36,672 bases of DNA from a virus. Its lineage: Duplodnaviria; Caudoviricetes. Under the pieces are notes generated by a model. The model saw only the letters and a list, made by a program, of their open reading frames with translations, had not been told where the DNA came from and searched no databases. The DNA lies in IMG/VR virus record IMGVR_UViG_3300030376_003444, positions 1 to 36,672 of that record. One strand, given 5' to 3'. Positions 6,882 to 36,672 of this stretch are shown in pieces; the stretch's first letter is position 1; the number at the start of each line of letters is the position of its first letter. A program made the position numbers and the translations under genes.

Positions 6882-9800
6882 TTATTTATTTTCAGGGCCT
6901 ATTAAATGAGGGATGGGAAGAGGTGTAATACCAAAGTGATTTTCAGCCTTAAAACGATTTTGGAAATAACCTTTTTCAGCAATTAGTAATTTATTATACA
7001 TTCTAGCTAACTCAGGGAATTTTTTTGACATCGTAGGTTGCTTTGCATCTGGTATGAAAAGAAGTCGATATTCCCAATGCTTTTGACGTTCTTGAAGTCT
7101 TTCGTATTTTTCAGGTGTAATTAATTCATATCTGTTTAATCCTTTTTCATCAAAAAAACCATCTTGTGGTGATGTAATAGGATTCATTATGCCAATGTCT
7201 ATTAAGGCTAATTCTTGTGCAATAACTTGATAAGGTTTTGCTTTTGTTTCTTTTTCGTCATAAATGTCACTTCTATCTCTATCTAAATAAATAGCACCTC
7301 GCATTGCTTTTATTTCATACCATCGGTCATTCACTTCTCCACCAGTTAATGCATCACGTAACTTAAGAAATTCCGTGTTGGTAAGCCCTTCTTCAATGTT
7401 ATACTTACCTCCAATTACATCCTGATTTTGTTCGTAATTTCCTTTAACCCATTCTTTAACTTCCTCATTATATTGGACGCCTTCAAACTTACTAACGTCT
7501 GAGTTTATGTAAGATTCAATTGCTTGATCTTCAATACTTTTACGAACTTCAGTAGGTAATAAATGTGTATGTCTTGAGTGTATCAGACCCGCTTGTTTTC
7601 CCATTAAAGAACGATAGGCAGCGTGAGCGTTCTTACGCACTGCAGGTTCAGCAGCTAGTAAGTCAAAGCCATGTGTTTTTCTAATAAACTCTGCATGTGT
7701 TTTGACATTGTCGGGAGCAGTTGAAGGGTCAATAACTTCGTTTTCTCCACCTTGTTCTTTTTCCCAAGCATCTAGAGATTCAGCTACACCTGATATTTCT
7801 TTTAAAGATGAATACACTAAAGTGTTGTTAAGATTTATTTGGTCTTCCTCTAACTTAAAAGTAACCTTCATGTTCTGACCCTCAGTAGGAAACTCAAGTA
7901 CTTGACCTTCTTCTGTATTTAGTTTTTTCCAATCTAAGGGATCAAAAGCTTTGGTAAAATTTTTATATAATTCTTTAGCTGTAGCCAGATTAGCAATATG
8001 ACGCCTTTGTTCAGTAAGTGTGTCTCTTTGTTCTGACTTTCTGAGTTCATTAGCTGCGTTGTAAATATCAAGTTGAAGTCGATTTCTGTTCTGGTCTAAA
8101 TCCCGTCGAACTGCTTCAAGGTTAGAATACCTTTGTAGTCCTTTAGGGCCTGCAAAAAATTGTGCAGATTTACTAGCGTCAAGTTTTTCAGGGTCTTCCA
8201 TTTTTCCTGCTCCATAAATAGGATCAGTGTTGTATTGCCTTTCTAGTTCATCAAAATTTTCCAGTATATTTATGTTGTCATCTGATAACTGTGTCTGTAA
8301 ACGCTCACGTTGTAATTCACCTGCTTGGTCACTGCGGCTTAAGGCTTCTTCATAATAAGTTAAAAGTGCTGTTTTTTCAGCCGTGAGTTGGTCTATAGTT
8401 TTTTTCTGTGTTTCCCCTTGAATCCTTGATGCCCATAAATTTTCACGTTCTTGAGGCGGTATGTTATCAAGGGCTTCTGTAGTGTTTGCTCTTAGCTGTG
8501 TTTCAAGTTGATGTGTAAATCTAGCAACAGCATGTTTAGCTGCCATGATCTTATCGTTTTCTTTAAAATTCTGCTGAAACCCTCCTTCATCAGGGGATAG
8601 CCTAGCTAATCCTAGTATTGTTGCTATTTCACTGCCTGCGTCTGAAGCAAGGACTGTAGTGACCATGTTGTTTACATCTCTGTCAGCTACTGTGTAGAAC
8701 GCATTCAGATCGGCAAATTTGTTTAAGTCATCAATAGCAGTATTTATATCAGCTTCTAAATCTGTGTCATCTATTTCATCTACTACATCTTGAAGTTGTG
8801 ACGCCATGCCTATCCAATCACTGGCAGAATATTCACCAGAGTTTTCAGGATTCATTGCTTCTCTAAATTGATGTAACATTGATCTTCCTAACGTTATTCC
8901 TCCATTTTGAAGTTTAGTTGTAACGGCAGATTGAAGGACGTTTCTGAAGAGAAGGGCATCTGATTCAACACTTGGATTGTTTTTAAACACAGCGGCTTTC
9001 ATGTCATCCATGTTAAAAAATGTGTAGACAACATCGTGCACTACTTCGTCAATACTTTTGTCTGTATCTCCTATGTATTTTTCAACAGCAGGAAGAAGAG
9101 GTTCAATTAATGGGATAGCCTGTTGATTGGCTATTTCTGTTAGATCAGCTATTAAGGCTTCTTTTGCTCCTGCTTTCGCTTTTCCATAGGCTGAACGATT
9201 TTGTAATAGTGTTGTTTGGACAGCCCTAACTGCATCTGCAAATATGTAGTCTGAAGTTTGATCAGCTTCTTTTTTAGTCATCCTGAGATCAGGGTGCTGT
9301 GAAAGAGCGTCGGCTATTTTGTATATGTTTTTCTGTTCAAAAATATCTAAGCCATACACTTTTTTATCTTTTAGGTAATCAATGTTTTCTTCCTTCCATT
9401 GATCGTAGTTACCTAACACAGATAAAACTTTTTGGTTAACTTTTCGTATTCTTCGATTTTGTTGGTTATCCTTATAAGTCGCAGCGTCCTGTTCTGTTTT
9501 TGCTATTTCACTCCAGATGGCTTCTAGAGTTTGTGATCCCGCTCGTTTACTTATATCTGCATACTTGGCAAACATTTGGGTTCTTCCTCCATTACCGTTA
9601 TCACGGGTCATGCTTGTGACTTTGCTCCAAGCTGCTGCTAGGTTTAATTCATTGTCAGGATCAGAAGCCATATCAAGGAACACAGGCAGGATTACTTCGT
9701 CCATAACTGATTGTGCATATCCTAGTTTATCTTCAGGGAAGCCTCCAAATTTTTTACCTAAAAATGATCTGAAATCATTTAATCCTTTTCTGATGTCAGG

Positions 9801-24452: not shown

Positions 24453-26247
24453 CAAGGGGACATCTGAACCCAAGTGTGGCCCCTGCCTGTTTAATAGCAC
24501 TGACTGCCTCAGAAGCCACAAGTTTACTCCACTCAGGTGCTGCTTCGCATTGATATTCGTCATGCACATGTGCCACTATTCCCCAATCTTTACCGTGAAC
24601 TAGACCCTTTTGGGTAAGGTTGTTATAGAGATGGACTGTGGCCTGCTTCATGATTACGGCCCCTGCCGATTGGAGTAATGTGTTTAATGCAGCATGCTCA
24701 CTCCGTATGAAAAGATGCCTTCCATCCAATCCCTTTAGATAGTTTCTAGTCTCAAGTGCATTGCTTATACAAGTCTTTAATTGTCCTAACGCAGGCAAAC
24801 TCCTTAAAAATTTTTCCTTAATTTTCTTACCAGCACCTCTTCCTTTACCTATAACTTCCCCAATCTTGGCGTCACCTGCTCCATACAAAAATGCATATAT
24901 AAATCGTTTGGCTGCGTCCCGTGATGGGAGTCCTGCTGCCGCCTGATTAACAGTGTGTATGTCTTCCTCTAGGAGTTTGTGAGTGTAATCTCCGTCATCG
25001 TAAGGAGCTAAATAGTGTGCTAAACATCTGAGTTCTAAACCAGCAGCATCACAACCTACTAGTTCCATTCCTTCAGATGCTTTAAACAAAGATCGGCACT
25101 CTTCTCCATAAGGTGACCCCACGCGAGGCACTTGAGCCACGTTAGGATTACTGTGTGTGCATCGTCCTGTGACTGCCCCGTTAGTGTTCACCCTTCCATG
25201 CATCCTCCCTTCTTTTTCTAGCTTCAGCCATGCTTGCTGGCCCTCTGCAAGTTGACCCATTCGTTTGACTAACAGTAAATATTCATTGAGTAATTCTACT
25301 GACTGTTGGTTGGTCTCCAGTTTCACCTTAGAGAGTATTCCCTCATCAATCTTAGGCTTACCCTGCTCAGTGAAATCAGAAGGTTTCCATCCCAATCTCT
25401 GTAGCCTGTCACCTATGTGATCACGACTGGCTGGGTTAAAAGGAACCAGCTTAAGTTTCACAGGCCCTTTTGCTATGTCCTTATCCTTATGACCTGCTTC
25501 TTTTGCTGACTTCTTAGTAGGCCAAAGGTGACCGTCAGGTGTACGATACAGGTGAGACTTCATAGGTATCTTATCATCAGGAAAGATCACCTTAAGTTCT
25601 TCTAGTAGCTCCAGTTTGCGGGATGATAGTTCTACATATAGCTTACGTGCCTTGTTGATATCGAATGAAAATCCATGATGCTCCATGCGGTGGATGCACC
25701 ATGCAAATTCATGTTCCAGTTCAATACACTTCTCTTCCCAACCTTGGTCCATCAAAGATTGATACAGCTTGTGAGTGACGATGGTATCCTGCTTACAGTA
25801 ATCCAACATTTCACTTTTGTAGACATCGAATCCTTCTTCCTCTCCGAACTCCCCTTTGTGTTCACCTAACCTATAGCCCCAAGCTTTAAGGCCGTGGGAG
25901 CCTTGAAGTCTTAGTGGCATGTAGTTCTTGTTCTTAACTAGGCGTTCACGATCAACATCGCCTATGTTTGTGTGCATCAAACGACTCAACACTAGAGTGT
26001 CTGTAATCTTTGGAAGTCTGCTGTATTCAGCAAGCCCTAGTTTAACTAGAGCGGGTATATCGAATCCTATAATATTGTGTCCGATAATCTCATCATACTG
26101 CAACAACATCCTTACCCCATCTTTAGCATCCTCTGGATCAAACCTGTGGATGTCACCTGATTCGACATCAATCAACACGATGCACCATAGCGTAGTGCAG
26201 GTGTCTAAGAGACCGTCAGTTTCTATATCAAAAATCGCTCTCTTCAT
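24409..26247 (-). CDS. Family A DNA polymerase, gp5-like
   Basis: Exo motifs FDIETDG, GHNIIGFD, YCKQD; pol motifs DAAGLELR, RDAAKRFIYAFLYG, HVHDE; ends GHNWAETH. Confidence 0.97.
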   Translation of the reverse strand: MKRAIFDIETDGLLDTCTTLWCIVLIDVESGDIHRFDPEDAKDGVRMLLQYDEIIGHNIIGFDIPALVKLGLAEYSRLPKITDTLVLSRLMHTNIGDVDRERLVKNKNYMPLRLQGSHGLKAWGYRLGEHKGEFGEEEGFDVYKSEMLDYCKQDTIVTHKLYQSLMDQGWEEKCIELEHEFAWCIHRMEHHGFSFDINKARKLYVELSSRKLELLEELKVIFPDDKIPMKSHLYRTPDGHLWPTKKSAKEAGHKDKDIAKGPVKLKLVPFNPASRDHIGDRLQRLGWKPSDFTEQGKPKIDEGILSKVKLETNQQSVELLNEYLLLVKRMGQLAEGQQAWLKLEKEGRMHGRVNTNGAVTGRCTHSNPNVAQVPRVGSPYGEECRSLFKASEGMELVGCDAAGLELRCLAHYLAPYDDGDYTHKLLEEDIHTVNQAAAGLPSRDAAKRFIYAFLYGAGDAKIGEVIGKGRGAGKKIKEKFLRSLPALGQLKTCISNALETRNYLKGLDGRHLFIRSEHAALNTLLQSAGAVIMKQATVHLYNNLTQKGLVHGKDWGIVAHVHDEYQCEAAPEWSKLVASEAVSAIKQAGATLGFRCPLDGESKVGHNWAETH

Positions 26248-27859
26248 CTCCGTCTTCTTCAGGGGCTGCACCTTCAATCAATCGTCCTGTATCCTTGTTG
26301 AACTCAAGGTAACATCCAATTCCGTTCTGACCTGACCAGCGATTCTTAAGAACCCTGACTGTAGTCCTGTGACCATTTTCGACATCTTGTTGATCACGTT
26401 CTAGACCAATCACCATGTCAGAGAGTTGAGCTATAGAAGCACTGCCTCTAAGTTGTGCTAGTGTAGTCCTCGCCCCCTCTTCATGTCCTTTTCCTTCAGG
26501 TCTCTTCAAATGACTTACGAGTACAAGACCAAAGCGTAGCTCCTCAACGAGGCTCCTTAGTTTGGTCATGGTGTTGTCAATCATTCGACGTTCATCTCCT
26601 CCCTCCATACCTGATACAACAATAGAGATATGATCGAGGAAAATTATTTTGCAACCAACTGAGGTTACTAAATATCTTATTTTTGATAATAAATTATCTT
26701 CTGATAAGGACCCCCAATGATCATATGTGAAGTAATTGCCTGAACCCACGGTCGCATCAAACGCTTCTTTCAGTTCCCCTTCTGATGCCTCTTTAGGGTT
26801 CAGGTAAATTGGTTTATTTAAGTGCAATCCCATCAATCCTAAAGCAGTACGTTTGGTTGACTCTTCCAGAGCTATGTAACCGACAGACTGTTGGGATGAT
26901 AGTAAATGATATGCGACCTCTTTACATATGGCACTCTTGCCTATACCAGAGCCAGCACATAGTGTAACAATCTCCCCCTCACGTAATCCGTGAGTCATCT
27001 CGTTCAAACCACTCCAAGGATACTGATGCGATATGCTGGTCTCCTCCTTGTTGATTGCTTCCCAAAGTTCAGTCCCACTTACAATTCCATCAGGCCTCCA
27101 AGCTTTAGCTTCCCACATGGCACTGATAAGTTCCTTGCCTCTTCTTTGTTGGAGCATTTCATTGGCATCCTTTAATGAAAGAGTAGCTACCTTTGCTTTA
27201 CCTACTGAAAGAATTTGAGAACAATCATTAGCAGCTTTCTGTCCGACTTTATCTTGGTCGAACATGATCACCACATTCTCAAACTTTTCTAGCCACTCTA
27301 GGTTTTCCTTGAATGCTTTTACTGCACCAGCAGCACCATTAGGTACAGACACAACAGGCCACTTGTTTTCCAACAACTGGGATACGCTCATTGCGTCTAT
27401 CTCGCCTTCAGTGACAACGACTTGCTTGTTGCCTGTTGATCGGTTCCACAACCATTGGCCATACAACGGTAGTTTTCCCGTTCCTAATATTCTGAAGTCT
27501 TTGTCTTGAAACCTGACCTTACTTATTCGGTCACCTTCGTCGGTCCTGTAGTTCGCAATCTGAACAGGCCTTCCGTTATACTCACCTACTTCATATTCCC
27601 AGAAGCGACAGGTATCTTCAGTTAGCTGCCGTTTGGCAAGTGCTGAATATCTGACGTTGGTTAATGATGTATGCTGTGTGAACTCCTCAGTGGGCTTAGG
27701 TGTTGCCGCATCTGAGTCGTAATTTTTGTGGAATTTATTACAGCTAAAACAATAGCCATGTCCATCATCGTAAACCCCAACAGCATCACTGCTGCCGCAA
27801 CTGGAACAGGGGCCATGTTTAACCAGTTGGCTTTCACTTTTTTCGTTTTCGGTAGTCAC
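26228..27859 (-). CDS. Primase-helicase, gp4-like
   Basis: Zn ribbon CSSC...CFSC, TOPRIM TEGEID and FDQD, Walker A AGSGIGKS, LDHISI, LRGSASIAQLSD, acidic tail ending in F. Confidence 0.97.
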   Translation of the reverse strand: MTTENEKSESQLVKHGPCSSCGSSDAVGVYDDGHGYCFSCNKFHKNYDSDAATPKPTEEFTQHTSLTNVRYSALAKRQLTEDTCRFWEYEVGEYNGRPVQIANYRTDEGDRISKVRFQDKDFRILGTGKLPLYGQWLWNRSTGNKQVVVTEGEIDAMSVSQLLENKWPVVSVPNGAAGAVKAFKENLEWLEKFENVVIMFDQDKVGQKAANDCSQILSVGKAKVATLSLKDANEMLQQRRGKELISAMWEAKAWRPDGIVSGTELWEAINKEETSISHQYPWSGLNEMTHGLREGEIVTLCAGSGIGKSAICKEVAYHLLSSQQSVGYIALEESTKRTALGLMGLHLNKPIYLNPKEASEGELKEAFDATVGSGNYFTYDHWGSLSEDNLLSKIRYLVTSVGCKIIFLDHISIVVSGMEGGDERRMIDNTMTKLRSLVEELRFGLVLVSHLKRPEGKGHEEGARTTLAQLRGSASIAQLSDMVIGLERDQQDVENGHRTTVRVLKNRWSGQNGIGCYLEFNKDTGRLIEGAAPEEDGDEESDF

Positions 27860-28055
27860 TTGTTATCTCTTCTATTTGTCCATCAAATTGGACGGTTCCT
27901 AATATTTCTCTTTCTTTATTTGACAGGCGTATCCATGTGATTTTGCCTGCCACTCCTTCTAATGTGTCGAGATCAGCTATCTGGACGGTTGCCTTCTTGC
28001 CTGTAGGGGTCACAAGCACCGCATGGGTTGCCTTGTGGGGCCTTATGATAACCAT
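27834..28055 (-). CDS. Hypothetical protein
   Basis: 73-aa ORF overlapping both neighbours, at the position T7 uses for lysozyme gp3.5; no amidase motifs. Confidence 0.6.
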   Translation of the reverse strand: MVIIRPHKATHAVLVTPTGKKATVQIADLDTLEGVAGKITWIRLSNKEREILGTVQFDGQIEEITSDYRKRKK

Positions 28056-28411
28056 GAGCTAGGAATCTTTTTACCAGAGTACAGGAACCCATGTCTTTCG
28101 CACCATTGCCCATAAGTTGTCTTACTTTTTTTCGACAACTTGGCATTAGGATTTTGAAAGACAAATCGGATGTCAATGTCTGGGTGTTGCTGTTTAATAA
28201 GCAGATGCTTTGCTCGATCTTGTGGCAAGAATCTCCCCTTCGTTTCAATGAAATAACCTAAGTCATCCAAATAAAAGTCAGGGAGATAATGATGCAGCTT
28301 GTGATACGGTATCCGTTGGGATTCGAAAGAAAATGGGACGCCTTGAGTCTCCAAAAGACGTCCCATCCCCCGTTCCAAACCACTACGGTATGTATTTGTG
28401 TTGTGCTGCAT
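28043..28411 (-). CDS. Endonuclease I (Holliday junction resolvase), gp3-like
   Basis: YRSGLE, YLPDF, IETKGRF, DRAKHLLIK, DIRFVF motifs. Confidence 0.95.
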   Translation of the reverse strand: MQHNTNTYRSGLERGMGRLLETQGVPFSFESQRIPYHKLHHYLPDFYLDDLGYFIETKGRFLPQDRAKHLLIKQQHPDIDIRFVFQNPNAKLSKKSKTTYGQWCERHGFLYSGKKIPSSWLS

Positions 28412-28447
28412 TTCTGTACACGCCTGAAGCTGGTTTCTCGACTACCA

Positions 28448-29113
28448 TCAGAAATCAGCGGCGTCAGACTGTACAGTGCTAGTGGCCTTTTCTCCTGCAA
28501 CGATAGGAGTGGTCGCACCACCAGAAGTTGGTTCCTTTTCGCTAGAGAACCCCTCTTCGACCACAGCAAAGCCGTGATCTCCTTGTCCTCCGCTACCTAC
28601 GGAAACCAAATTGATTACCTGAACAGCACCAAGTCTTAGTGTCAGACCTGTAGCCATTGGGGTATTGTAAGGTACTACTTTAAAGTTAACCTTAACATCT
28701 GACCCTTTACCGATAAGTTCGCCCATAGGTTTTAGCTGGGCATCCAGCACCTTAGGTCGTTGTTCGATCTTAGAGCCATCCTTTTTGGATTTAAAATGAG
28801 GCCTTAGCTTGGCCGTGAAGTCGTAGCCTGTAGTGCCATCATCCTCAGTGAACTTTTTACCTTCACAAGGATTTACAGAGCGAACCTTTTTACCTTCTTC
28901 TTCTAAAGACTTTTTGTAGCCATCTAGAAGTTCCGTAAGTTGCTTGTTGAGTTTGTCACCTTCCTTCTCATTCATTCTGAAGGTTATTTTGAACCAACCT
29001 ACTTCATCGAAATGGGTATCTGGTTCTAAAAGGTGAGTCCAAATGGCTTTTACTTCCCCTGTAGTTACATCCAACAGGGCCGATGATTTTTTGGTAGACT
29101 TCTTAGTAGTCAT
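28448..29113 (-). CDS. ssDNA-binding protein, gp2.5-like
   Basis: PDTHF...G, IGKGSDVKV, GLTLRLGAVQVI, C-terminal DAADF; start moved to MTTKK (29113), after an A/G-rich leader. Confidence 0.92.
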   Translation of the reverse strand: MTTKKSTKKSSALLDVTTGEVKAIWTHLLEPDTHFDEVGWFKITFRMNEKEGDKLNKQLTELLDGYKKSLEEEGKKVRSVNPCEGKKFTEDDGTTGYDFTAKLRPHFKSKKDGSKIEQRPKVLDAQLKPMGELIGKGSDVKVNFKVVPYNTPMATGLTLRLGAVQVINLVSVGSGGQGDHGFAVVEEGFSSEKEPTSGGATTPIVAGEKATSTVQSDAADF

Positions 29114-29186
29114 ATCTCTTCTATTTCTCTTTGTATGACGTTTTTGAGCGACTATAGGCTGATTTGGTCGTGCCTGTAATGCAACG

Positions 29187-31439
29187 TCAAGATAGAGCAT
29201 AGCACATTCGGTTGCTCTTGTCAACTCTGAACATACTGCATATAGCATCCTTGCAGGTTTTCAGTAGTTTGTCCACGTTATCAGGGTGTACTCCATAACA
29301 GTCATGAAGGGATATTATAGGGTAATCACATATTGACAGAACTTTATGGAGCAAAGCGGCATCATAAGAGTGGATGATGTTTGCAGCTACAGCATTTTTA
29401 GCCTTCCGATAAGACAATACATCTGTAGGTGTCTTTATGTGGAAACTTATTATTTCTTTATTCACTGAAGTGCGTAGGCGAGTGCTTTTAGTTTTCTTAT
29501 ACTCGTTTGTAACTGGGAATCCTGACAGGCTATTCCATGATAGTGATTCATTACGGTTAACTTTTTGCTGACAAGAAAGCATGAATTTTCTAGGAGCCTC
29601 AGTTAATTCATCCAGTGATTCATGGTAGATGTTCAGTAGCTTATCTATTTCAAAATAAATGGTTTTACCAAAGTGATCTTTATCTAGAGATTTATACCAA
29701 TCAACAACAGTCTGTTTTAATCCATGTGGGGTTCCACCGTACATGTACATTACTGTTAATGATTTAACTAAAGAGCGGTCCAACCCCATTGATAGCCATG
29801 CTACAGATTCAGGACGTCCACTTTGGATAATTTTAGCATGCATAGATTGGAGTAATTCAGCATAAAGATCAACAGGCTCATCACTGTTAGATAAATTAGT
29901 TAATCTTTGTAATTCTTTGTCACCTGTAAGCAGTCCAATTATCTGCATCCCAGACGCAGTGTGGTCCAACTTGACAGGTAAATGTGAGTGAAAACTTATC
30001 CTATTATTTATCCAGTTGTTAAACTCAAAACACCATTGAAGAAATTCAGTAGGAGAATCACAATCTAACCAGAAACTTTTATGCTGCTCAGGGTCTGTTG
30101 CTACAGCTTTGATCCACTTTTCATGCTTTAAAGCCCACTCTTGCCTTTCATCGAAAGTTCCCTTAATTCCATATCTATTGGCTCCACCAATAAGGAACCA
30201 GTGTTCATTTCCTCTGACTGATCTTCCTTCTGCAAATTCTAAAAGCCCTTTGGCTTGGTCAGGACCTTGAGGGTTAAGCAATTTAGGCACATAATAAAGT
30301 CGGCCCCTGAAATCAGCTTGCACAGGGAAGTGTAAATCAGTAGAAACATGTTCTTTGGCTAACTCACGGAGGGTCTTTTCTAGTATCAATTGAGGTATCC
30401 ACCGCCTCCTCCTTGAGTGAAATAAAGCTTGACACCGTTTCCACTCCTTTGTACCATTGGGATACCGAAGGTGATTGTCACTGATGTTGTTATTCTTACT
30501 TCCCACTAAGTGGACATTCGAGAGTGACCCTAGGGAGACCCTAAAGGGAGTTTGTTGTAGGCGATTTGCAGCAGCAAACACTAAGGAGAGGTCTTTAGAG
30601 GCATAAGTGTCTTCTATTGTCTGCCTGTTTTTCTTCTTAATGAAGTGCCAGTTGATATTTTCAGGGAATTCGTAGCCTCCTGAGGTGACTGAAGTCCAAT
30701 CCTTTGGAGTTTCCTTACAGGGTAAGTAATAAGGGAACAATGTAGAAGCTCTAGAGTTAAATGAGTCTATCCATTTTAGGGTCTCTTCAGTGGGAATTAT
30801 GAAAGATACTGTTTTATTACGTCCTAGCTTCTTGTTTTCATACCTGAATAATCCTGTAGATTGCCTAAGTATTTCAAGCAGTACTAAACCTATTTGAGTT
30901 CTGTGAGTGACGCCTAAGTCTAGCTTCCAAGTGTCTCCTAAGTCTTGGTTAGCGGCTCTTATGATTAAGCTACGTTTAAACTCATAGGAAGCTCTGCGAG
31001 CAACCTTAGATTCTAGTGATTTGAACCAAAGTTTGTTGTTCTTTTTAAGATCACTGAAATTAAGTTCATCTTGAAGCTTCTGACCTATGGTAAAACCTAG
31101 ATTAGTTCTTTTACACTCTTGTGAGACACCATTTAGGTAACATTTAAAAGTGATATGGGAGATTAATTCGGTTTTTAAGGTTATTTTAGACAAGGCATTG
31201 TGGTATCTCCCTGCTTTGCCTTTTTTTATATCAGTTAGGTAAGTTTCAAGTGCTTTGTTGAAGTTGAAGATGAGTTTTTTGAACAGGAAGGAACCATGAT
31301 TGGTCTGAGATTCTTTTTGTTTTTGTGAAAGTACTTCAACACGTTTTTTAAACTTGGTTTTTCCTTTGGATATGGAAGACAGGCCGCTCACTAAAGGAAG
31401 AGATAGGACAAGTGCTTCACCGACCAAAGCAATACACAC
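29187..31439 (-). CDS. Single-subunit DNA-directed RNA polymerase, gp1-like (compact, divergent)
   Basis: DFRGRLY...NPQG.D..KGLL.F; motif A LDHTASG; motif B RSLVK...YG; IHSYDA; motif C LHDC. Start uncertain (GTG 31439 or GTG 31391). Confidence 0.92.
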   Translation of the reverse strand: MCIALVGEALVLSLPLVSGLSSISKGKTKFKKRVEVLSQKQKESQTNHGSFLFKKLIFNFNKALETYLTDIKKGKAGRYHNALSKITLKTELISHITFKCYLNGVSQECKRTNLGFTIGQKLQDELNFSDLKKNNKLWFKSLESKVARRASYEFKRSLIIRAANQDLGDTWKLDLGVTHRTQIGLVLLEILRQSTGLFRYENKKLGRNKTVSFIIPTEETLKWIDSFNSRASTLFPYYLPCKETPKDWTSVTSGGYEFPENINWHFIKKKNRQTIEDTYASKDLSLVFAAANRLQQTPFRVSLGSLSNVHLVGSKNNNISDNHLRYPNGTKEWKRCQALFHSRRRRWIPQLILEKTLRELAKEHVSTDLHFPVQADFRGRLYYVPKLLNPQGPDQAKGLLEFAEGRSVRGNEHWFLIGGANRYGIKGTFDERQEWALKHEKWIKAVATDPEQHKSFWLDCDSPTEFLQWCFEFNNWINNRISFHSHLPVKLDHTASGMQIIGLLTGDKELQRLTNLSNSDEPVDLYAELLQSMHAKIIQSGRPESVAWLSMGLDRSLVKSLTVMYMYGGTPHGLKQTVVDWYKSLDKDHFGKTIYFEIDKLLNIYHESLDELTEAPRKFMLSCQQKVNRNESLSWNSLSGFPVTNEYKKTKSTRLRTSVNKEIISFHIKTPTDVLSYRKAKNAVAANIIHSYDAALLHKVLSICDYPIISLHDCYGVHPDNVDKLLKTCKDAICSMFRVDKSNRMCYALS
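29196..29224 (-). promoter_or_regulatory. Sigma70-type promoter upstream of SSB, inside the RNAP 3' end
   Basis: TTGACA (29224-29219), 17-nt spacer ending TGC, TATGCT (29201-29196): consensus -35, extended -10 TG. Confidence 0.7.
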
Positions 31440-31501
31440 GCCCAGAGAACCTTAGGAGCGACCTGAAAAACGAAAGTGGCATTACAGTAATTAAAAGCAA
31501 C

Positions 31502-31738
31502 TTATTTGATGCCTCTGTTGCGAGACTTAGCCATGACTGCAAGGTTGGAACGTTTGTTATTTCGAGGATTTCCGTCTTTATGATGTACGTCTTTGCCTTT
31601 AGGGACACCACCATTTCGTTCTTTCTCTGCGTGGGCTGCGTTTCTTCCTGCTCTGTCTAGTTTATCCGCTTTAGGTTTGTGGTCTCTCGCATATTCTTTT
31701 TTGTAATCTCTTTTCTTTTTAGGATATTTTACTTTCAT
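31502..31738 (-). CDS. Small HNH endonuclease-like protein
   Basis: RDYKKEY...GKDVHHKDGNPRNNKRSNL...SRNR; ATG at 31738. Confidence 0.8.
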   Translation of the reverse strand: MKVKYPKKKRDYKKEYARDHKPKADKLDRAGRNAAHAEKERNGGVPKGKDVHHKDGNPRNNKRSNLAVMAKSRNRGIK

Positions 31739-31807
31739 AAGTAATGGTCTCTCTAACACAGAGTCAACATTAGGCTTTCTAATAAGTCAAAGTTAATTGT
31801 CAACAGG

Positions 31808-31843
31808 TAAGTAACGTATGATAGTGATTATCCCCGTGGCCCC
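31808..31843. repeat. Copy 1 of ~35-bp intergenic direct repeat
   Basis: taagtaacgtatgatagtgattatccccgtggcccc; 30/36 aligned identities with 35870-35903. Confidence 0.75.
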
Positions 31844-31860
31844 CTTTAGTATTATCTAAC

Positions 31861-31942
31861 AAAAAAATAGGTATATAAGCGGCTATGAAGAGGACATACA
31901 AACCTCACCCACATCTTAATAGTTGGACTACTTATATACCTA
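31861..31942 (-). terminator. Long hairpin plus U-tract (terminator or RNase III-type site)
   Basis: 12-bp perfect inverted repeat TAGGTATATAAG (31868-31879) / CTTATATACCTA (31931-31942), further imperfect inner pairing, T-run after it on the minus strand. Confidence 0.55.
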
Positions 31943-31946
31943 ATTG

Positions 31947-32348
31947 TTATAGAGCGTATTCCATAATGGTGTCTTTAGATAGCGATAATGAAGGGTATTT
32001 AGAGTTTATTTTGTCACTGTCTCTTACTTTCCACAAGTCTATGTAGAAGAATTTATCAGGAAACATATTAGTGCAGAACACAATGTAATCTAAATGAGAG
32101 GTAGCTAGGTAGTTAGCACCATCTTTACCTCCTGCTTTAGATATTAGCTGTAACTCACAACGATCTCTATTGTTCCATGATCTGTATTTAACGTTAACAG
32201 TTTTGTAATCACATTTATGTACAATTACATAGTCTTCTATGGATTGATTTTGAACAGGTGTGTATATAGGAATATTTCTTTCTATACAGAACACTTCAAA
32301 ACGTTTTTCGTAGAGACTGCCTAGTTGCGTACGTGATAGTTTATTCAT
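31947..32348 (-). CDS. PD-(D/E)XK nuclease-like protein
   Basis: GSLYE...P...EDYVI...TVNVKY pattern; 133 aa. Confidence 0.55.
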   Translation of the reverse strand: MNKLSRTQLGSLYEKRFEVFCIERNIPIYTPVQNQSIEDYVIVHKCDYKTVNVKYRSWNNRDRCELQLISKAGGKDGANYLATSHLDYIVFCTNMFPDKFFYIDLWKVRDSDKINSKYPSLSLSKDTIMEYAL

Positions 32349-32419
32349 GGTCAGTTATTACTAACGTTATAAACATGATAGTAAAAAATAGTGAAGCACA
32401 TGCAATGATTAGGATTGGA

Positions 32420-32626
32420 TCAGGCATTGTTATTCCTTTCCACAAGTTTTCTGTGATCTTCTAACATCTCACGTTCTCTTGGAGTAGTAGGGGGCATACG
32501 TCCTTGTAGAATCATTTTGTGTATAGCGTTAGTGGCAGCTTTTCTAATGTCTATGCTTTTACCTGTGTCTATTTCACCGTGACCTGCGTCTCCTACTTTA
32601 GTGTTATGTACTCTTTCAGTGTTCAT
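32420..32626 (-). CDS. Hypothetical early protein
   Basis: ATG at 32626, 1 nt after the upstream stop; 68 aa. Confidence 0.6.
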   Translation of the reverse strand: MNTERVHNTKVGDAGHGEIDTGKSIDIRKAATNAIHKMILQGRMPPTTPREREMLEDHRKLVERNNNA

Positions 32627-32627
32627 A

Positions 32628-33161
32628 TTATTTCCATTCTTTAGGGTTGGCAATAGAACGTGCAGCACATTTAAGTATGCAATTTTTAATACTTAGTGAT
32701 ACACCTTTACATCCTGAGTCAGTGACTGCTTTTCTTACAGAATCAGGAAACATGTGTATAGATATGTTATCCCACTTTTGTAAGCTGATTGTGTTGAAGT
32801 ATTTATCTTCTTTATATGCTTTTGCTAAGAAATCAGGACTACCAATATTATCTAAGATTAGTTGACGTATTTCTTCAGTATTAAAAGAAGGTTGACCAAA
32901 GTACATGTTGTGAATCATCCATCGGTGATTATGTGGAACAGGTTCTCCAAAGGTTTCTTTTCTGTTAAGAGCTTCTTCGTAGTGACACCAACTCATAAAC
33001 TCTACACAGTTACCTTTTCTTTCCCATTCTTTAGACTTAGCTTTGATCTCTGCTTGTCCTTCTTCTCTCTCTTTGTCTAAACCTTCTTGGTACTTTATAT
33101 AGTCTTCTGAAGGCATTTCTCCGTACATTTCTTTGTACATATTTACAGCTTCTTTATTCAT
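32628..33161 (-). CDS. Hypothetical early protein
   Basis: 177 aa; C-terminal FNTISLQKWD...SLS..NCILK.AAR pattern that I recall from other phage hypotheticals. Confidence 0.7.
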   Translation of the reverse strand: MNKEAVNMYKEMYGEMPSEDYIKYQEGLDKEREEGQAEIKAKSKEWERKGNCVEFMSWCHYEEALNRKETFGEPVPHNHRWMIHNMYFGQPSFNTEEIRQLILDNIGSPDFLAKAYKEDKYFNTISLQKWDNISIHMFPDSVRKAVTDSGCKGVSLSIKNCILKCAARSIANPKEWK

Positions 33162-33438
33162 TTTCTTTTACTTTATTTCTTAGTTCATTAGTTAGGTTCA
33201 ACCACGATTGATAAACCATTCGTGATAGTGGTTCATGTTTAGCTTGCATGGACAACAGATGTTTTAACTCATCTACATGTGCTGCTAAGGCTAACATTTC
33301 AGGATCACAGTTTTTCATGTTACCTATTTCTAGGGTGTATTCAGAATCTTCTTCACCCAGTGGACCAGAGACTCCACCTCTACATGTGTAGTCGCCATTG
33401 TCTGGTTGTGATTTATATAAGTATGTATGTCTAGGCAT
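33154..33438 (-). CDS. Hypothetical early protein (MPRHTY...)
   Basis: Start moved to 33438 because the upstream in-frame part is a hairpin plus AT-rich leader; 94 aa. Confidence 0.6.
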   Translation of the reverse strand: MPRHTYLYKSQPDNGDYTCRGGVSGPLGEEDSEYTLEIGNMKNCDPEMLALAAHVDELKHLLSMQAKHEPLSRMVYQSWLNLTNELRNKVKENE

Positions 33439-33455
33439 GATAGTATTTAAAGTTA

Positions 33456-33490
33456 GGGAGCCATCCCCAGATTGACTGAAGATGACTCCC
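33456..33490 (-). other. 15-bp RNA hairpin between early genes
   Basis: GGGAGUCAUCUUCAG-UCAAU-CUGGGGAUGGCUCCC; three G-U pairs work only on the minus strand. Confidence 0.65.
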
Positions 33491-33503
33491 ATGATGTTTA
33501 TAC

Positions 33504-34583
33504 TTAGAACAATAATTGCTGTCCAACAGCACCAGCAACTGCAGCACCACCAAGTGCAGCAGCGAAACCACTAGTTGCTTTGTTATGTTTGCCAGTACGT
33601 AGGTCTAAACGTCCAGCTTGAACATCATCAGCTAGTGTGAATGCACGTGTCTTGCGGTCAACAGTAGACTTGTTGAGCAATGCACGTACTTGACGGGCTT
33701 CTTGGATTACTTCAGGACTTCTGAATGCACCACGTTGACCCCTTGGGTTATTGACAGGTGACCAGTGGTCTTCGTACTCAGTGACTACATTGAAAGGATG
33801 CCACAATGTGCCTTCTGATTTTTCCTTACCACGTGCGTCTAGGAATATAGGTTCAATACCATTATTCCACTTACGCCAATCTTTTAAGTCTTCATCAAGC
33901 GGTCTGTCGTAACACAACTTGAGGAAGTTTAACTGTTCTTGTTCAGAGAGAGACATCTGAGTCATTCTGTTGAATGTGGTCTCAACTTTGGATAAGTGAT
34001 CTAGTCCCAATTGCATGTACTTGATTGCTTTATCCATGTTGATCTGAATAGAACGTGTGTGTTTTATGTTATAGCTGTGATTGCTATCTCTAAGAGCAGC
34101 ATACAGTGTGTTAGAACATACAGGTCTGATGTGAGTGAACTTCATTGTCAATGCTTGTTGACCTGTGTGTCCTTGTGCAATAAGCAAGTATCTCTCGGTG
34201 GTATCACCATTGAGTAACTTAGCTTCATACGGAAGGCGGCATTGTAAGAATACAGATGAGCCATTATGGAAATACCCTCCAGATACAAACTGAGCGTTTG
34301 AGTCTTGAAGGATACGGTCGAAGCACCTGAATGCTTCTGTGTTTTGTACTGTTTCAAACCCTTGTCCTACAACGCAGTTACCAAGTGGTGTGCCTGAGTC
34401 TGTTCTGTAGATACCTTTGAGGTTATCCATAGGTGTCCATTGATACATACAATGTTGACGGTTATAGGTTTGTACTTGTACATCGCCTGAGGATACTTCC
34501 CAATCTAGGTTAGCTGCTCTGACGGCCTCGGCAGTTGAATATATGGACTGCCCTTCTAGGTTTATTATGTTGTATGATGACAT
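33504..34583 (-). CDS. DUF932 / TIGR03299-like phage-plasmid protein
   Basis: ANLDWEV, VQNTEAF, IRPVCSNTL, IKHT, GTLW..FN.VTEY.DH motifs. Confidence 0.85.
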   Translation of the reverse strand: MSSYNIINLEGQSIYSTAEAVRAANLDWEVSSGDVQVQTYNRQHCMYQWTPMDNLKGIYRTDSGTPLGNCVVGQGFETVQNTEAFRCFDRILQDSNAQFVSGGYFHNGSSVFLQCRLPYEAKLLNGDTTERYLLIAQGHTGQQALTMKFTHIRPVCSNTLYAALRDSNHSYNIKHTRSIQINMDKAIKYMQLGLDHLSKVETTFNRMTQMSLSEQEQLNFLKLCYDRPLDEDLKDWRKWNNGIEPIFLDARGKEKSEGTLWHPFNVVTEYEDHWSPVNNPRGQRGAFRSPEVIQEARQVRALLNKSTVDRKTRAFTLADDVQAGRLDLRTGKHNKATSGFAAALGGAAVAGAVGQQLLF

Positions 34584-34613
34584 ACTTATTTATCTCTATT
34601 TATTATGTTATGT

Positions 34614-35513
34614 TTAAATGGCTATATCGGAGTAGCCTTTCTCCTTACTGATTAATATAACGGGTCTTGCGTCAGTAAACCGCAAGTCGTGAAGCTCGTT
34701 GTCATACATCTGATATCCCCATTTGTGAGGAATACCTGCATCAATGTCATTGAGCATGTTTTTGTACCTGTCTTTGTTGTATACAATATTAACATTGTAT
34801 CCTGCCTCAAGGACTTGAAGACAGTTGTCAACATCACTCTGAGTACCATCGAATGAGTACGTTAAATGATAGTTGAGAGGCATATCAGTCCACGCTGGTC
34901 TAGTACCATAACGGTATTTAGTGTAGTCGTAGAACTGAACATTAGGGAATGCGTCGAACAGTGTTTTCTTATCAAGGAACTTAGCTGTTTTGATTTCCCA
35001 CAATAAGTCAGACAAACCGTTTAACCTGATTGTTAAGTTAGGCATACCTTTATCTCTAAGTTGACTGTTGAGATATGATATTTCTAGGGCTATGTCTTCC
35101 ATTGTATCCTCGTATTTCTCAAATAGATTACGAGTACGCCTTATTCGTGCATTAGACACGTTAGGCATGCGGCCTCTGCCTTGATGGTAGAGACAGGTAT
35201 CGTGACACTTGGAGAACCTGTGACACGTGGTATATCCTGAGTACTTAGCTGGAGCCAAGTGCAGGATTGCTGTGGCGTAACCATATTCAAGGGATTTGAT
35301 AGCCTTGGGGTTACTGAATGTGAGATACTTACACCGTCTACTGATTGAGGTGATGTGATTTGCACATTCTTGTGATACCACCCTCTTGGATGGTCGCGTG
35401 TGGGCAACGCTTGGCATGCTTTGAAGCACACTACTGCCCATATCAGAGCTAACACTTTGAGTATTAACTCCCATAGTTCTTCTGACACTTGTGTTGTCTG
35501 ATATGATAGTCAT
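34614..35513 (-). CDS. GP88-like protein (three-Cys, radical-SAM-related)
   Basis: C....KC...CLY..GRG, IRLNGLSD, FPNVQFYDYTK, NYHLTYS, HDLRF.D motifs; start uncertain. Confidence 0.8.
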   Translation of the reverse strand: MTIISDNTSVRRTMGVNTQSVSSDMGSSVLQSMPSVAHTRPSKRVVSQECANHITSISRRCKYLTFSNPKAIKSLEYGYATAILHLAPAKYSGYTTCHRFSKCHDTCLYHQGRGRMPNVSNARIRRTRNLFEKYEDTMEDIALEISYLNSQLRDKGMPNLTIRLNGLSDLLWEIKTAKFLDKKTLFDAFPNVQFYDYTKYRYGTRPAWTDMPLNYHLTYSFDGTQSDVDNCLQVLEAGYNVNIVYNKDRYKNMLNDIDAGIPHKWGYQMYDNELHDLRFTDARPVILISKEKGYSDIAI

Positions 35514-35576
35514 ATGTAGTTGTTTATTATGTTTATTTTATTTGTGAGTACCAACATGACGCATGTTAGTAAATTT

Positions 35577-35867
35577 TCATGATTCTGTTCCGTATAGTAT
35601 TTGCCAACCAAGAGGTGATGTTCCTGATATTAGAAACTCACGATCTTCTGGACTAAGTGATTTGAACTCATTGATCCGATCAGTCTGATTGAATGCGAAT
35701 AATTCAGAACCTAGTACGGTAACTGAATGTTGACTGCCAGTGACGTGGCATGTGCCTGTGAATGTGTATTTATGTACATCATCATCAAATGATTCAGTGT
35801 ATGTACATTCTCTGATGTACCTATTTTGCAGTGGCAAGTAAGTAAACCTTGAATTGATATTAGACAT
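35577..35867 (-). CDS. Conserved hypothetical phage protein
   Basis: 96 aa; LSPEDREFLISG.SP..W..L motif. Confidence 0.75.
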   Translation of the reverse strand: MSNINSRFTYLPLQNRYIRECTYTESFDDDVHKYTFTGTCHVTGSQHSVTVLGSELFAFNQTDRINEFKSLSPEDREFLISGTSPLGWQILYGTES

Positions 35868-35869
35868 GA

Positions 35870-35903
35870 TAAGTAAGTATGATAGTTATTACTCTGTGGT
35901 CCC
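35870..35903. repeat. Copy 2 of ~35-bp intergenic direct repeat
   Basis: taagtaagtatgatagttattactctgtggtccc, ending 2 nt before the ATG at 35867. Confidence 0.75.
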
Positions 35904-35919
35904 TATAAAGACTAACGCC

Positions 35920-36456
35920 TCAGGATTGCTCCTGAGGGTTAGGTAGGCCATTGACTAGAGTGCGATCTTCGACATCGACAACCTTAGTGGGATCATATGC
36001 ATGATGCTGCTTCTTAGACTTCATCTCTTCAGATGTCACAGGGACATTGCGGTTATCCAACTCATCCTGCTTATTAGCTTCGGCTGCTGATGCCTGCTTC
36101 ATAGCACCGCCCTTGTTGAACCTTTGATATGCCATGTTAGTGAGATACTTCTCAGAGATCGCTTCTGCTGATATGTCAACGTACGGTGTGCCATCTGGCA
36201 GCTTGTCATGACCTGCATTGATCCAATGGAGAGTAGTCTCTTGGCAACATGGACATGTAATCTGTAACTTGCCATTCATGTCTTGTCGCCTGAAGCCTGA
36301 CTTGCGGCGGTGAGGTGGAGTGATAAACAGGCCAGCAAATCCTGATTCATTCTGAGGCCTATTGGCTAATGTCTTCTTAACCTTGGTGGTAAGGTCACGT
36401 AGTGTAGCCGTAGCTGCAGCCGCAGCCTTCCTGAGTGTGTTATGTTTGTTTTTCAT
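35920..36456 (-). CDS. Hypothetical protein, first gene of the early region in this window
   Basis: 178 aa from ATG 36456; CPCC motif; its N-terminus lies in one arm of the large inverted repeat. Confidence 0.65.
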   Translation of the reverse strand: MKNKHNTLRKAAAAATATLRDLTTKVKKTLANRPQNESGFAGLFITPPHRRKSGFRRQDMNGKLQITCPCCQETTLHWINAGHDKLPDGTPYVDISAEAISEKYLTNMAYQRFNKGGAMKQASAAEANKQDELDNRNVPVTSEEMKSKKQHHAYDPTKVVDVEDRTLVNGLPNPQEQS

Positions 36457-36627
36457 TTTAATTTTGAGGATCACCGGAAGGGTTCTTCATTTCCTGTGAT
36501 CACCCCTCAGGGCACAGGAATGAACGGTCCCTGAGGATGATCCTCAAAATATCCTCACTGAAAAACATTGATAACACTCAGGAAGGCGTAGGCGTAAGCG
36601 GAGGCGTAACGGAGTGATCCTTAACAC
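36386..36627. repeat. ~240-bp imperfect inverted repeat (giant hairpin/cruciform)
   Basis: Nested perfect stems 36425-36438/36574-36587 (14 bp), 36447-36455/36559-36567 (9 bp), 36461-36473/36538-36550 (13 bp); 36486-36498/36513-36524 (12 bp, one bulge); periodic outer stems. Confidence 0.92.
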
Positions 36628-36672
36628 TTGTAACATGTAGAATGCAATAGGACTAAGAATGGGTAGCCTGTT

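What the first reader, a model, noticed from the sequence alone, without database searches (positions are those of the whole stretch)
36395..36617. Ladder of five GNA/GNA 3x3 internal loops in a giant hairpin at the early end
Seen: on the + strand the left arm reads TCAC-GTA-GT-GTA-GCC-GTA-GCT-GCA-GCC-GCA-GCCTTCCTGAGTGT and the right arm ACACTCAGGAAGGC-GTA-GGC-GTA-AGC-GGA-GGC-GTA-AC-GGA-GTGA. The short stems stay complementary even where they vary (GCC/GGC, GCT/AGC, 2-bp GT/AC), and all ten loop triplets are GNA. Established: 5'-GNA/5'-GNA loops are closed by sheared G-A pairs in both DNA and RNA. On the mRNA strand the same loops are weak U-C/C-U mismatches. Inference: selection acts on the folded + strand, which is the template/antisense strand. 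This implies a structured ssDNA (cruciform, origin, genome-end processing, hairpin-type promoter for the divergent RNAP, or decoy) or an antisense RNA. I know no such element in T7-like phages.
Basis: partly seen in the sequence, partly recalled or inferred. Interest (0 to 1): 0.85.

Follow-up and report, generated by a model that had tools for sequence, protein, structure and literature searches.

The report
Template-strand fold-back of first phage gene
In a group of uncultured marine T7-like phages, the DNA just ahead of the first gene is a decayed mirror copy of that gene, with mismatches that favour folding of only one strand, which suggests that this end of the genome likely becomes single-stranded DNA and folds back on itself, something we did not find described for these phages.

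Summary
The G.A ladder is real and conserved, with double-sided stem changes, in three relatives. It is not an assembly fold-back. The ladder is one form of a clade-wide feature: in 14 of 19 loci the leader is a decayed inverted copy of the first gene, up to about 590 nt per arm. Its transition mismatches are G.T on the template strand 273 times against 64. The same clade writes a nick-like word, ACTATCA, only on the coding strand, mostly in the early region. The gene's family links distantly to phage single-strand-binding proteins. Best reading (0.4): the nicked coding strand is lost and the template strand refolds over the first gene, shielding it and keeping it readable. A single-stranded DNA fold of any purpose is about 0.6; an antisense RNA is 0.2. 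Nicks, ssDNA state and transcription are all untested. The scan noted this heptamer before on other DNA (e1-6296963); the fold-back was not found in earlier notes.

The parts
36395..36438 (+). Left (gene-side) arm: five GNA units between 2-4 bp stems, then one side of the 14-bp stem. On the - strand these are codons 7-20 of the first early gene (the Ala/Thr run).
36439..36458 (+). Gene-side arm over the start codon (CAT at 36454-36456). It pairs with about 36560-36573; an unpaired bubble lies just upstream of the ATG.
36459..36558 (+). Apex module (100 nt, own covarying rod). Exchangeable: contigs of three runs from three studies join 36458 to 36559 across 270 other letters; L001/L030 carry a roughly 190-nt branched apex with cGNAg/cGNNAg loops.
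36559..36617 (+). Right (leader) arm: non-coding, decayed inverted copy of the gene start, with five GNA units.
36348..36661 (+). Full extent of the imperfect inverted repeat by strand-neutral alignment (arms 36348-36482 and 36529-36661; outer parts loose).
35920..36456 (-). First early gene, 178 aa; 78-81% identical in L001/L002. One divergent family across the clade, linked by profile search to small phage proteins annotated as single-strand DNA binding.
35880..35886 (-). ACTATCA, candidate coding-strand nick word nearest the hairpin. It is one of 11 copies (25624-35886), all on this strand, 8 of them in 31.8-35.9 kb.
31819..31847 (+). Inverted copy of the left-end 'CCCCGTGGCCCC box', abutting an ACTATCA word. 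Candidate far arm of a roughly 5-kb template-strand panhandle. The window's own left copy lies beyond the contig end and is inferred from L001.
31502..31759 (-). Small HNH endonuclease gene, conserved before the RNAP gene in the four other records that cover it (49-69% identity); candidate nickase (untested).

Best explanation
The hairpin is a leader-encoded inverted copy of the start of the phage's first early gene, and it likely forms in single-stranded template-strand DNA, where it would rebuild a duplex over that gene after the nicked coding strand is lost. Shown: (1) the leader copy, in 14 of 19 clade loci and in eight of them covering most or all of the gene; (2) pairing kept by double-sided changes; (3) mismatches (G.T wobbles, or G.A brackets in the window's subfamily) that stabilise the template strand and weaken the mRNA strand; (4) a strand-exclusive word concentrated in the same early interval. 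Inferred: (5) the element sits about 75 nt inside the left terminal repeat, by analogy with T7's ATCTGT at position 161; (6) ACTATCA marks coding-strand nicks, by likeness to TACT/RTGMC of phage tf; (7) the short coding-strand pieces are stripped at entry or during replication, freeing the template strand; (8) the fold shields that strand and keeps the first gene duplex-like and readable, perhaps starting at the bubble before the ATG; (9) the product is a single-strand DNA-binding protein that then coats or opens the fold. The imperfect pairing would leave the mRNA translatable and avoid a perfect palindrome in double-stranded DNA.
For: Covariation: 11 of 54 paired columns change on both sides among 4 sequences; L001's three synonymous changes in the 14-bp stem are all matched in the leader; G.A edges are kept 10/10 in L001 and L002 and 7/10 in L030. 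Family: inverted-repeat score 63-334 in 14 of 19 clade loci, shuffles at most 31 (18 shuffles), 22 outgroup loci at most 70; T7, phiKMV and tf left ends score 28-40. Strand: G.T 273 vs A.C 64 over 13 loci, where composition predicts 56% (p 4e-22, loci not independent); G.T > A.C in 13 of 13; outgroup best repeats 63 vs 84. Template strand folds lower in 14 of 14 with RNA and DNA parameters. The A/G class is spread over all codon positions (9.5-15%), so cytosine deamination alone does not explain it. DNA rather than RNA: cGNAg/cGNNAg hairpins with stems of 3 bp or more number 38 on the template vs 14 on the coding strand in 24.7 kb (late side 37 vs 28 in 76 kb). L001/L030 loops switch GTA to GCTA, GTAA to GCAA and GTTA to GTCA, mostly not GNRA. 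Such mini-hairpins are far more stable in DNA than RNA and bind SSB poorly (PMC13037366, passages). Route to ssDNA: ACTATCA 97 coding / 0 template copies in 54 kb downstream of terL in 20 loci and 0/0 in 90.7 kb upstream; outgroup 11/6 and 7/9; 56/0 in six whole records, which overlap those loci. Known nick words are TACT/RTGMC, top strand, left-biased (PMC3517423 passages; tf record) and WACTRTGAC, mostly coding strand (PMC11780129 section 3.9). Panhandle: inverted box pair in G002 and G005, each matching its own genome's partner; G005's three differences are all G.T on the template strand. Gene: the clade profile reaches about 50 small proteins at E 8e-7 to 9e-4; 35 of 62 aligned rows hit a PHROG 'single strand DNA binding protein' family; hhalign probability 97% to one of them. 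Precedent: ssDNA stem-loops upstream of ssb in plasmid leading regions (PMC9849209 and 10.1101/2023.02.15.528439, passages).
Against: No nick, ssDNA state, genome end or transcript was observed. No -35/-10 pair is rebuilt in the fold in any of 14 loci, so how transcription would start is open. G.T and G.A pairs stabilise RNA as well. The window's own apex loop (CTCA) is not DNA-type. The nick word differs from tf's at one position, and nicked phages tf and phiKMV have no such repeat. L010 reaches its early genes yet shows no long repeat; four more misses have short contigs. The panhandle is absent from G003 and G004. None of the 15 clade rows is among the listed PHROG hits (rows beyond the first 20 are not itemised), they lack the acidic DDxPF tail, and the fold searches were inconclusive (best Z 5.3-5.5). 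The other early genes have no copy of their own. Three outgroup loci score 66-70, overlapping the weakest clade scores (63-76).
Confidence: 0.4

Rival explanations
1. Same ssDNA fold, different job: a snap-back at the genome end. The 3' template-strand tail left by resection or incomplete replication folds, and its end primes rightward synthesis, giving a closed hairpin end for protection or concatemer processing, like the T7 'M-end'.
For: The folded strand is the one whose 3' end lies at the left end. In the long forms the copy starts about 10-55 nt after ATCTGT. A T7 hairpin end exists (title seen in a reference list; details recalled).
Against: As recalled, the T7 palindrome is short and lies on the other side of the terminal repeat. 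Priming needs only a short stem, not a whole-gene copy. It does not explain the nick word or the gene's link to SSBs.
Confidence: 0.2
2. A leftward (antisense) RNA folds into a long G.U-rich rod and acts as a decoy or regulator.
For: G.U wobbles and sheared G.A pairs are RNA-compatible. The RNA-parameter gap is larger than the DNA one. T7 has a leftward promoter, A0. The window has a 10/12 sigma-70-like site on + just past the gene's end.
Against: That site is not conserved (L001 has a 9/12 site elsewhere; none in L019, L020, L028, L030, L010). No U-run terminator follows the right arm. Apex loops are mostly non-GNRA GNA/GNNA. A self-paired rod is a poor antisense. No Rfam match.
Confidence: 0.2
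3. Neutral or near-neutral by-product: an old inverted duplication kept in step by template switching, decaying under a G/T-biased mutation pressure on the template strand.
For: Template switching can copy changes between arms without selection (established knowledge). T.T > A.A (106 vs 42) and G.G > C.C (57 vs 14) also show G/T gain in the copy.
Against: Template switching erases mismatches, yet ten G.A edges persist while the middle bases vary. The copy tracks genes only 14-31% identical in protein. The coding strand's G+T share is only 0.43-0.50 across the window.
Confidence: 0.1
4. An mRNA leader hairpin that hides the start codon until cut (RNase III type) or opened.
For: The - strand also folds strongly (z -8.0) and covers the AUG. 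T7 early mRNA is processed at hairpins (recalled).
Against: Mismatches are systematically worse on the mRNA strand (13 of 13 loci; 14 of 14 energies).
Confidence: 0.07

Closest known systems
Frpo/ssi single-stranded DNA promoters of conjugative plasmid leading regions (PMC9849209; bioRxiv 10.1101/2023.02.15.528439; passages read)
   Same: Long imperfect stem-loop on the template strand of the first-entering DNA, directly at an ssb-type gene.
   Different: No rebuilt -35/-10 (0 of 14). The stem is made of the coding sequence itself plus a decayed copy. It lies in a tailed dsDNA phage with no known ssDNA entry.
Localized nicks of phages tf (TACT/RTGMC) and Rembedalsseter (WACTRTGAC) (PMC3517423 passages; PMC11780129 section 3.9)
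   Same: One-strand word, left-biased, (W)ACT-AT core, on the coding strand of early genes.
   Different: The word is ACTATCAY (C where tf has G), denser (about 1 per 560 nt downstream of terL) and absent from structural genes. tf has no fold-back. Nicks are not shown here.
N4 virion-RNAP hairpin promoters and GNA mini-hairpins at ssDNA phage origins (review PMC13037366, passages)
   Same: Template-strand sheared G.A motifs; cGNAg/cGNNAg loops in the apex of relatives.
   Different: Here a 220-1100 nt rod with internal G.A brackets, not a 5-bp stem with a triloop. No virion RNAP was detected.
T7 M-end hairpin of concatemer processing (Chung, Nardone and Hinkle 1990; title seen in a reference list only, content recalled)
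   Same: Hairpin of one strand near the concatemer junction of a T7-like phage.
   Different: As recalled, short and upstream of the terminal repeat. This element is downstream of the ATCTGT signal and overlaps a gene.

Membership tests
Frpo-type ssDNA promoter | Stem-loop favoured on the template strand upstream of or at early genes | tested here: met
   (computed folding and mismatch bias only)
Frpo-type ssDNA promoter | Fold rebuilds -35 and -10 boxes | tested here: not met
   0 of 14 loci with a site of 8/12 or better in the 90 nt before the ATG partner; the host's sigma consensus is unknown
Frpo-type ssDNA promoter | Located in the leading region of a conjugative element | tested here: not met
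   T7-like phage gene set
Frpo-type ssDNA promoter | Host RNAP transcribes from the ssDNA form | not testable with these tools
   needs in vitro transcription
tf/LUZ24-type localized nicks | Word on one strand only, biased to the left part | tested here: met
   97/0; 56/0 in six records
tf/LUZ24-type localized nicks | Consensus TACT/RTGMC or WACTRTGAC | tested here: not met
   word is (T/A/C)ACTATCA(T/C); differs at the G position
tf/LUZ24-type localized nicks | Physical single-strand break in virion DNA | not testable with these tools
   only assembled contigs were served
N4-type hairpin promoter | Short stem with GNA triloop at the start site | tested here: not met
   window apex loop is CTCA, L002 CACT; GNA/GNNA loops only in the L001/L030 apex
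N4-type hairpin promoter | Virion-encapsidated RNA polymerase | tested here: inconclusive
   one 750-aa T7-type RNAP; the 1198-aa virion-region protein hit no PHROG; the contig lacks the right end
RNase III site in T7 early mRNA | Structure selected on the mRNA strand | tested here: not met
Known RNA families (Rfam 15) | Match at gathering score | tested here: not met
   window 31000-36672 best E 0.47; 0 matches in 10 related loci
Small phage single-strand DNA-binding proteins (PHROG 18154/7364, DUF736-like) - first gene | Sequence homology | tested here: inconclusive
   transitive only; the window and L026 proteins hit nothing themselves
Small phage single-strand DNA-binding proteins (PHROG 18154/7364, DUF736-like) - first gene | PC4/PUR-like fold | tested here: inconclusive
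   four-strand meander model pLDDT 87; Pur-alpha Z 4.5-5.5 and T5 PC4 Z 4.3 among unrelated rows; no Foldseek PDB match

The most novel reading that the evidence does not exclude
These tailed dsDNA phages run their first ~5 kb as programmed single-stranded DNA. The coding strand is pre-nicked every few hundred bases and shed. The template strand closes into a panhandle and folds a private mirror copy over an SSB-like first gene, so that it is read from ssDNA out of reach of restriction enzymes, as in plasmid conjugation. This would give the long-unexplained phage genome nicks a function.
Probability: 0.25. Interest if true: 0.95.

Novelty: categorically new. Interest (0 to 1): 0.82.

Why it matters
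Phage genome nicks have been known for about 50 years without a function (PMC11780129, section 3.9). Here a nick-like word, a template-strand fold-back of a whole gene, a template-strand panhandle and an SSB-like first gene fall in one interval of one clade. That turns 'the coding strand is shed and the template strand works as ssDNA' into a direct test. Even if the molecule is RNA, a gene-length self-complementary element tracking a fast-evolving gene was not found in Rfam, in five paper searches or in this scan's earlier notes. These searches cover open-access text only and match exact words. A natural five-step ladder of G.A brackets is also a ready object for structural work.

Tried and rejected
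Assembly fold-back: rejected. Named phages: no DNA match; closest terL about 57%. Host: the genome scan gave only 49-61% terL matches, so no host; genes lack Shine-Dalgarno motifs by eye. RNA runs X13 and X17 have only low-depth contigs on genes and none over the hairpin; contigs cannot show strand or absence, so this is no evidence. A right-arm DNA pattern returned only the two contigs already found. A terL-side motif scan gave 17 contigs already held and 3 unrelated matches. The metagenome scan added a copy of the window's own type and re-finds of L001 and L030. ACTATCA as a -10 box: no fixed -35 or distance to starts, and flanks are unconstrained. The box as a general phage promoter: no coding-strand copy in 36.7 kb of the window. 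Leader copy as a coding gene: matches show no codon-position pattern., 53 start codons for L010, L020, L024, L025 were wrong picks and were corrected. The pattern was too strict and was replaced. Atlas and fold searches for the first protein named no family. Rows left out: of 33 loci at 75% terL identity or more, 18 were used; 14 had under 700 nt after terL and L011 duplicates L010. The 22 outgroup loci were hand-picked from the other 47 for downstream length. No supplements were read; supplementary tables of the nick papers could bear on motif variants.

Full report
OBSERVATION. The window is a T7-like phage contig with all genes on the - strand, from an uncultured marine group. The ladder is as described: five GNA/GNA units between short stems, above a perfect 14-bp stem. 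No chain longer than 2 appeared in 10 shuffles of the window. The + strand folds somewhat lower than the - strand (DNA -58.3 vs -55.1; RNA -116.9 vs -104.7). It is not an assembly artefact: the probable source run's contig goes on beyond the window, and runs X2, X3 and X5 of three other studies keep both arms but hold 270 other letters between 36458 and 36559.

WHAT THE ARMS ARE. The left arm is the start codon (36454-36456) and first 20 codons of a 178-aa gene that is 78-81% identical in two viral contigs. The GNA units on that side are the reverse of alternating Ala/Thr codons. The right arm is non-coding. Among the window, L002, L001 and L030, 11 of 54 paired columns change on both sides. 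L001's three synonymous changes in the 14-bp stem are all matched in the leader. The ten G.A edges are kept in L001 and L002 and seven in L030, where one loop has closed into a stem with G.T pairs. The middle base is free and is Watson-Crick in 7 of 15 cells. L030 also breaks four pairs of the inner stem. These are at most three independent lineages.

THE FAMILY. Using terL from L001, the order in the clade is terL, a CCCCGTG box, ATCTGT about 77 nt later, a leader, then the first gene. In T7, ATCTGT lies at position 161, at the edge of the terminal repeat as recalled, and ATCTGTT is the class II signal of the concatemer junction (PMC11617373, passages). So the leader is inferred to be the unique left end. 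A strand-neutral alignment finds an inverted repeat between leader and first gene in 14 of 19 loci (scores 63-334; 18 shuffles at most 31; 22 outgroup loci at most 70, three of them 66-70). In eight loci the arms are 340-600 nt, start just after ATCTGT and cover most or all of the gene. Misses are L010 and four short contigs. T7, phiKMV and tf left ends score 28-40. The G.A ladder is limited to the window's subfamily (5, 5, 5 and 3 brackets; 0 or 1 in ten others), so it is one way of building the rod. Apex modules are shared across different arms and are exchangeable.

WHICH STRAND. Over 13 loci, transition mismatches are G.T on the template strand 273 times and A.C 64 times, where composition predicts 56%. 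The direction holds in 13 of 13 loci and not in the outgroup (63 vs 84). The template strand folds lower in 14 of 14 elements with both parameter sets. The A/G class is even over codon positions, so the changes are mostly in the copy and are not only cytosine deamination. A general G/T gain in the copy is also seen (T.T 106 vs A.A 42; G.G 57 vs C.C 14), which leaves room for mutational bias.

DNA OR RNA. G.T and G.A pairs suit both. The loops lean to DNA. cGNAg and cGNNAg hairpins number 38 on the template and 14 on the coding strand in 24.7 kb after terL. The L001/L030 apex loops switch between triloop and tetraloop while keeping G and A, mostly outside GNRA. L009, L010 and L013, which lack the long repeat, carry several such mini-hairpins on the template strand. 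A review by their discoverers gives Tm 76.5 C for the DNA and 39 C for the RNA octamer, notes them at ssDNA phage origins and N4 promoters, and reports poor SSB binding (PMC13037366, passages). The window's own apex has no such loop. No conserved leftward promoter or terminator was found. The RNA runs were uninformative. The stability of (GNA)2 internal 'zipper' motifs in DNA is recalled; two searches found no paper to read on it.

A ROUTE TO SINGLE STRANDS. ACTATCA(T/C) occurs 97 times on the coding strand and never on the template strand in 54 kb downstream of terL in 20 loci (18 have it). It never occurs in 90.7 kb upstream, and the outgroup shows no pattern. Six whole records give 56 to 0, with none in structural genes (these overlap the loci). 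Phage tf has 14 mapped top-strand nicks at TACT/RTGMC, 11 in the left half (PMC3517423, passages). 61 phages share WACTRTGAC, mostly on the coding strand, function unknown (PMC11780129, passages and section 3.9; also a discussion passage of 10.64898/2026.09.21.753257). I noted the likeness and then found that earlier agents had read this heptamer the same way on other DNA; that is not independent support. In the window, G002 and G005 an inverted copy of the box sits at the far end of the early region, next to an ACTATCA and just before a conserved TTGAC element, the HNH gene and the RNAP gene. Each copy matches its own genome's left box (for the window, L001's), and G005's three differences are all template-strand G.T. 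G003 and G004 lack it. A sigma-70-like coding-strand site of 10/12 occurs in 3 of 17 clade loci against 10 of 22 outgroup loci, with G+C 48% vs 42% as a confounder.

THE GENE. First genes are one divergent family with a G..CPxC..SLHW core and no Pfam hit. A profile search of 1.8 billion proteins reached about 50 small proteins at E 8e-7 to 9e-4. Of 62 aligned rows, 35 hit PHROG 18154 and 30 hit PHROG 7364, both annotated as single-strand DNA binding. An Atlas neighbour cluster is 10% DUF736, and hhalign gives 97% to one member. A model of the compact L026 homolog is confident (pLDDT 87) but fold searches were inconclusive. SSB function is therefore a lead, resting on others' annotation.

MECHANISM. 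I commit to the following at 0.4: the coding strand of the early region is nicked and lost, and the template strand folds its leader copy over the first gene, shielding it and keeping it readable until an SSB-like product accumulates. It would work like Frpo, which drives early ssb expression from ssDNA in F (PMC9849209, passages; preprint passages). It is not a member of that family: no -35/-10 is rebuilt in any of 14 loci and the stem is coding sequence. Rivals are a snap-back end (0.2), an antisense RNA rod (0.2), a neutral by-product (0.1) and an mRNA leader (0.07). The sequence patterns are shown; nicks, the ssDNA state, genome ends, transcription start and protein function are inferred.

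VERDICT. A real, selected, strand-specific fold that is larger and more general than first seen, with no described counterpart found in the searches named under Why it matters. Interest 0.82.

Noticed in passing
window 25624-35886 (11 sites, + strand reads TGATAGT): Strand-exclusive heptamer, dense in the early region and absent from structural genes across the clade; candidate nick word.
   Followed up: yes
window 31819-31847; L135 (G005) 1363-1401 vs 6338-6376; G002 about 546-568 vs 40610: Inverted pair of the CCCCGTGGCCCC box flanking the early region, matching within each genome; absent in G003 and G004.
   Followed up: partly
window about 31780-31825 and the same place before the HNH gene in G002-G005: Conserved block ACTATCA - ACTTACC-like - TTGAC on the coding strand; probable host promoter for the HNH-RNAP unit.
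   Followed up: partly
L009 about 8530-9150, template strand: About 600-nt purine-rich leader packed with GCGNAGC-type mini-hairpins and GA repeats instead of a long inverted copy.
   Followed up: partly
L013 about 7750-8350: Leader with four near-tandem copies of a roughly 60-90 nt unit, most ending near the heptamer, between pyrimidine runs.
   Followed up: no
window 35575-35577: Contigs of runs X2, X3 and X5 hold 201 extra letters here, between the second and third early genes.
   Followed up: no
L024/L025 upstream of the first gene: Apex of about 300 nt between the arms that itself holds two heptamer copies.
   Followed up: no
L012, L019, L020, L024, L025, L028, L033 just after the first gene: Hairpin plus U-run on the coding strand (read by eye), so the first gene looks like its own transcription unit, followed by the heptamer.
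   Followed up: partly
window-wide gene starts: A-rich starts without a Shine-Dalgarno motif; host unknown.
   Followed up: no
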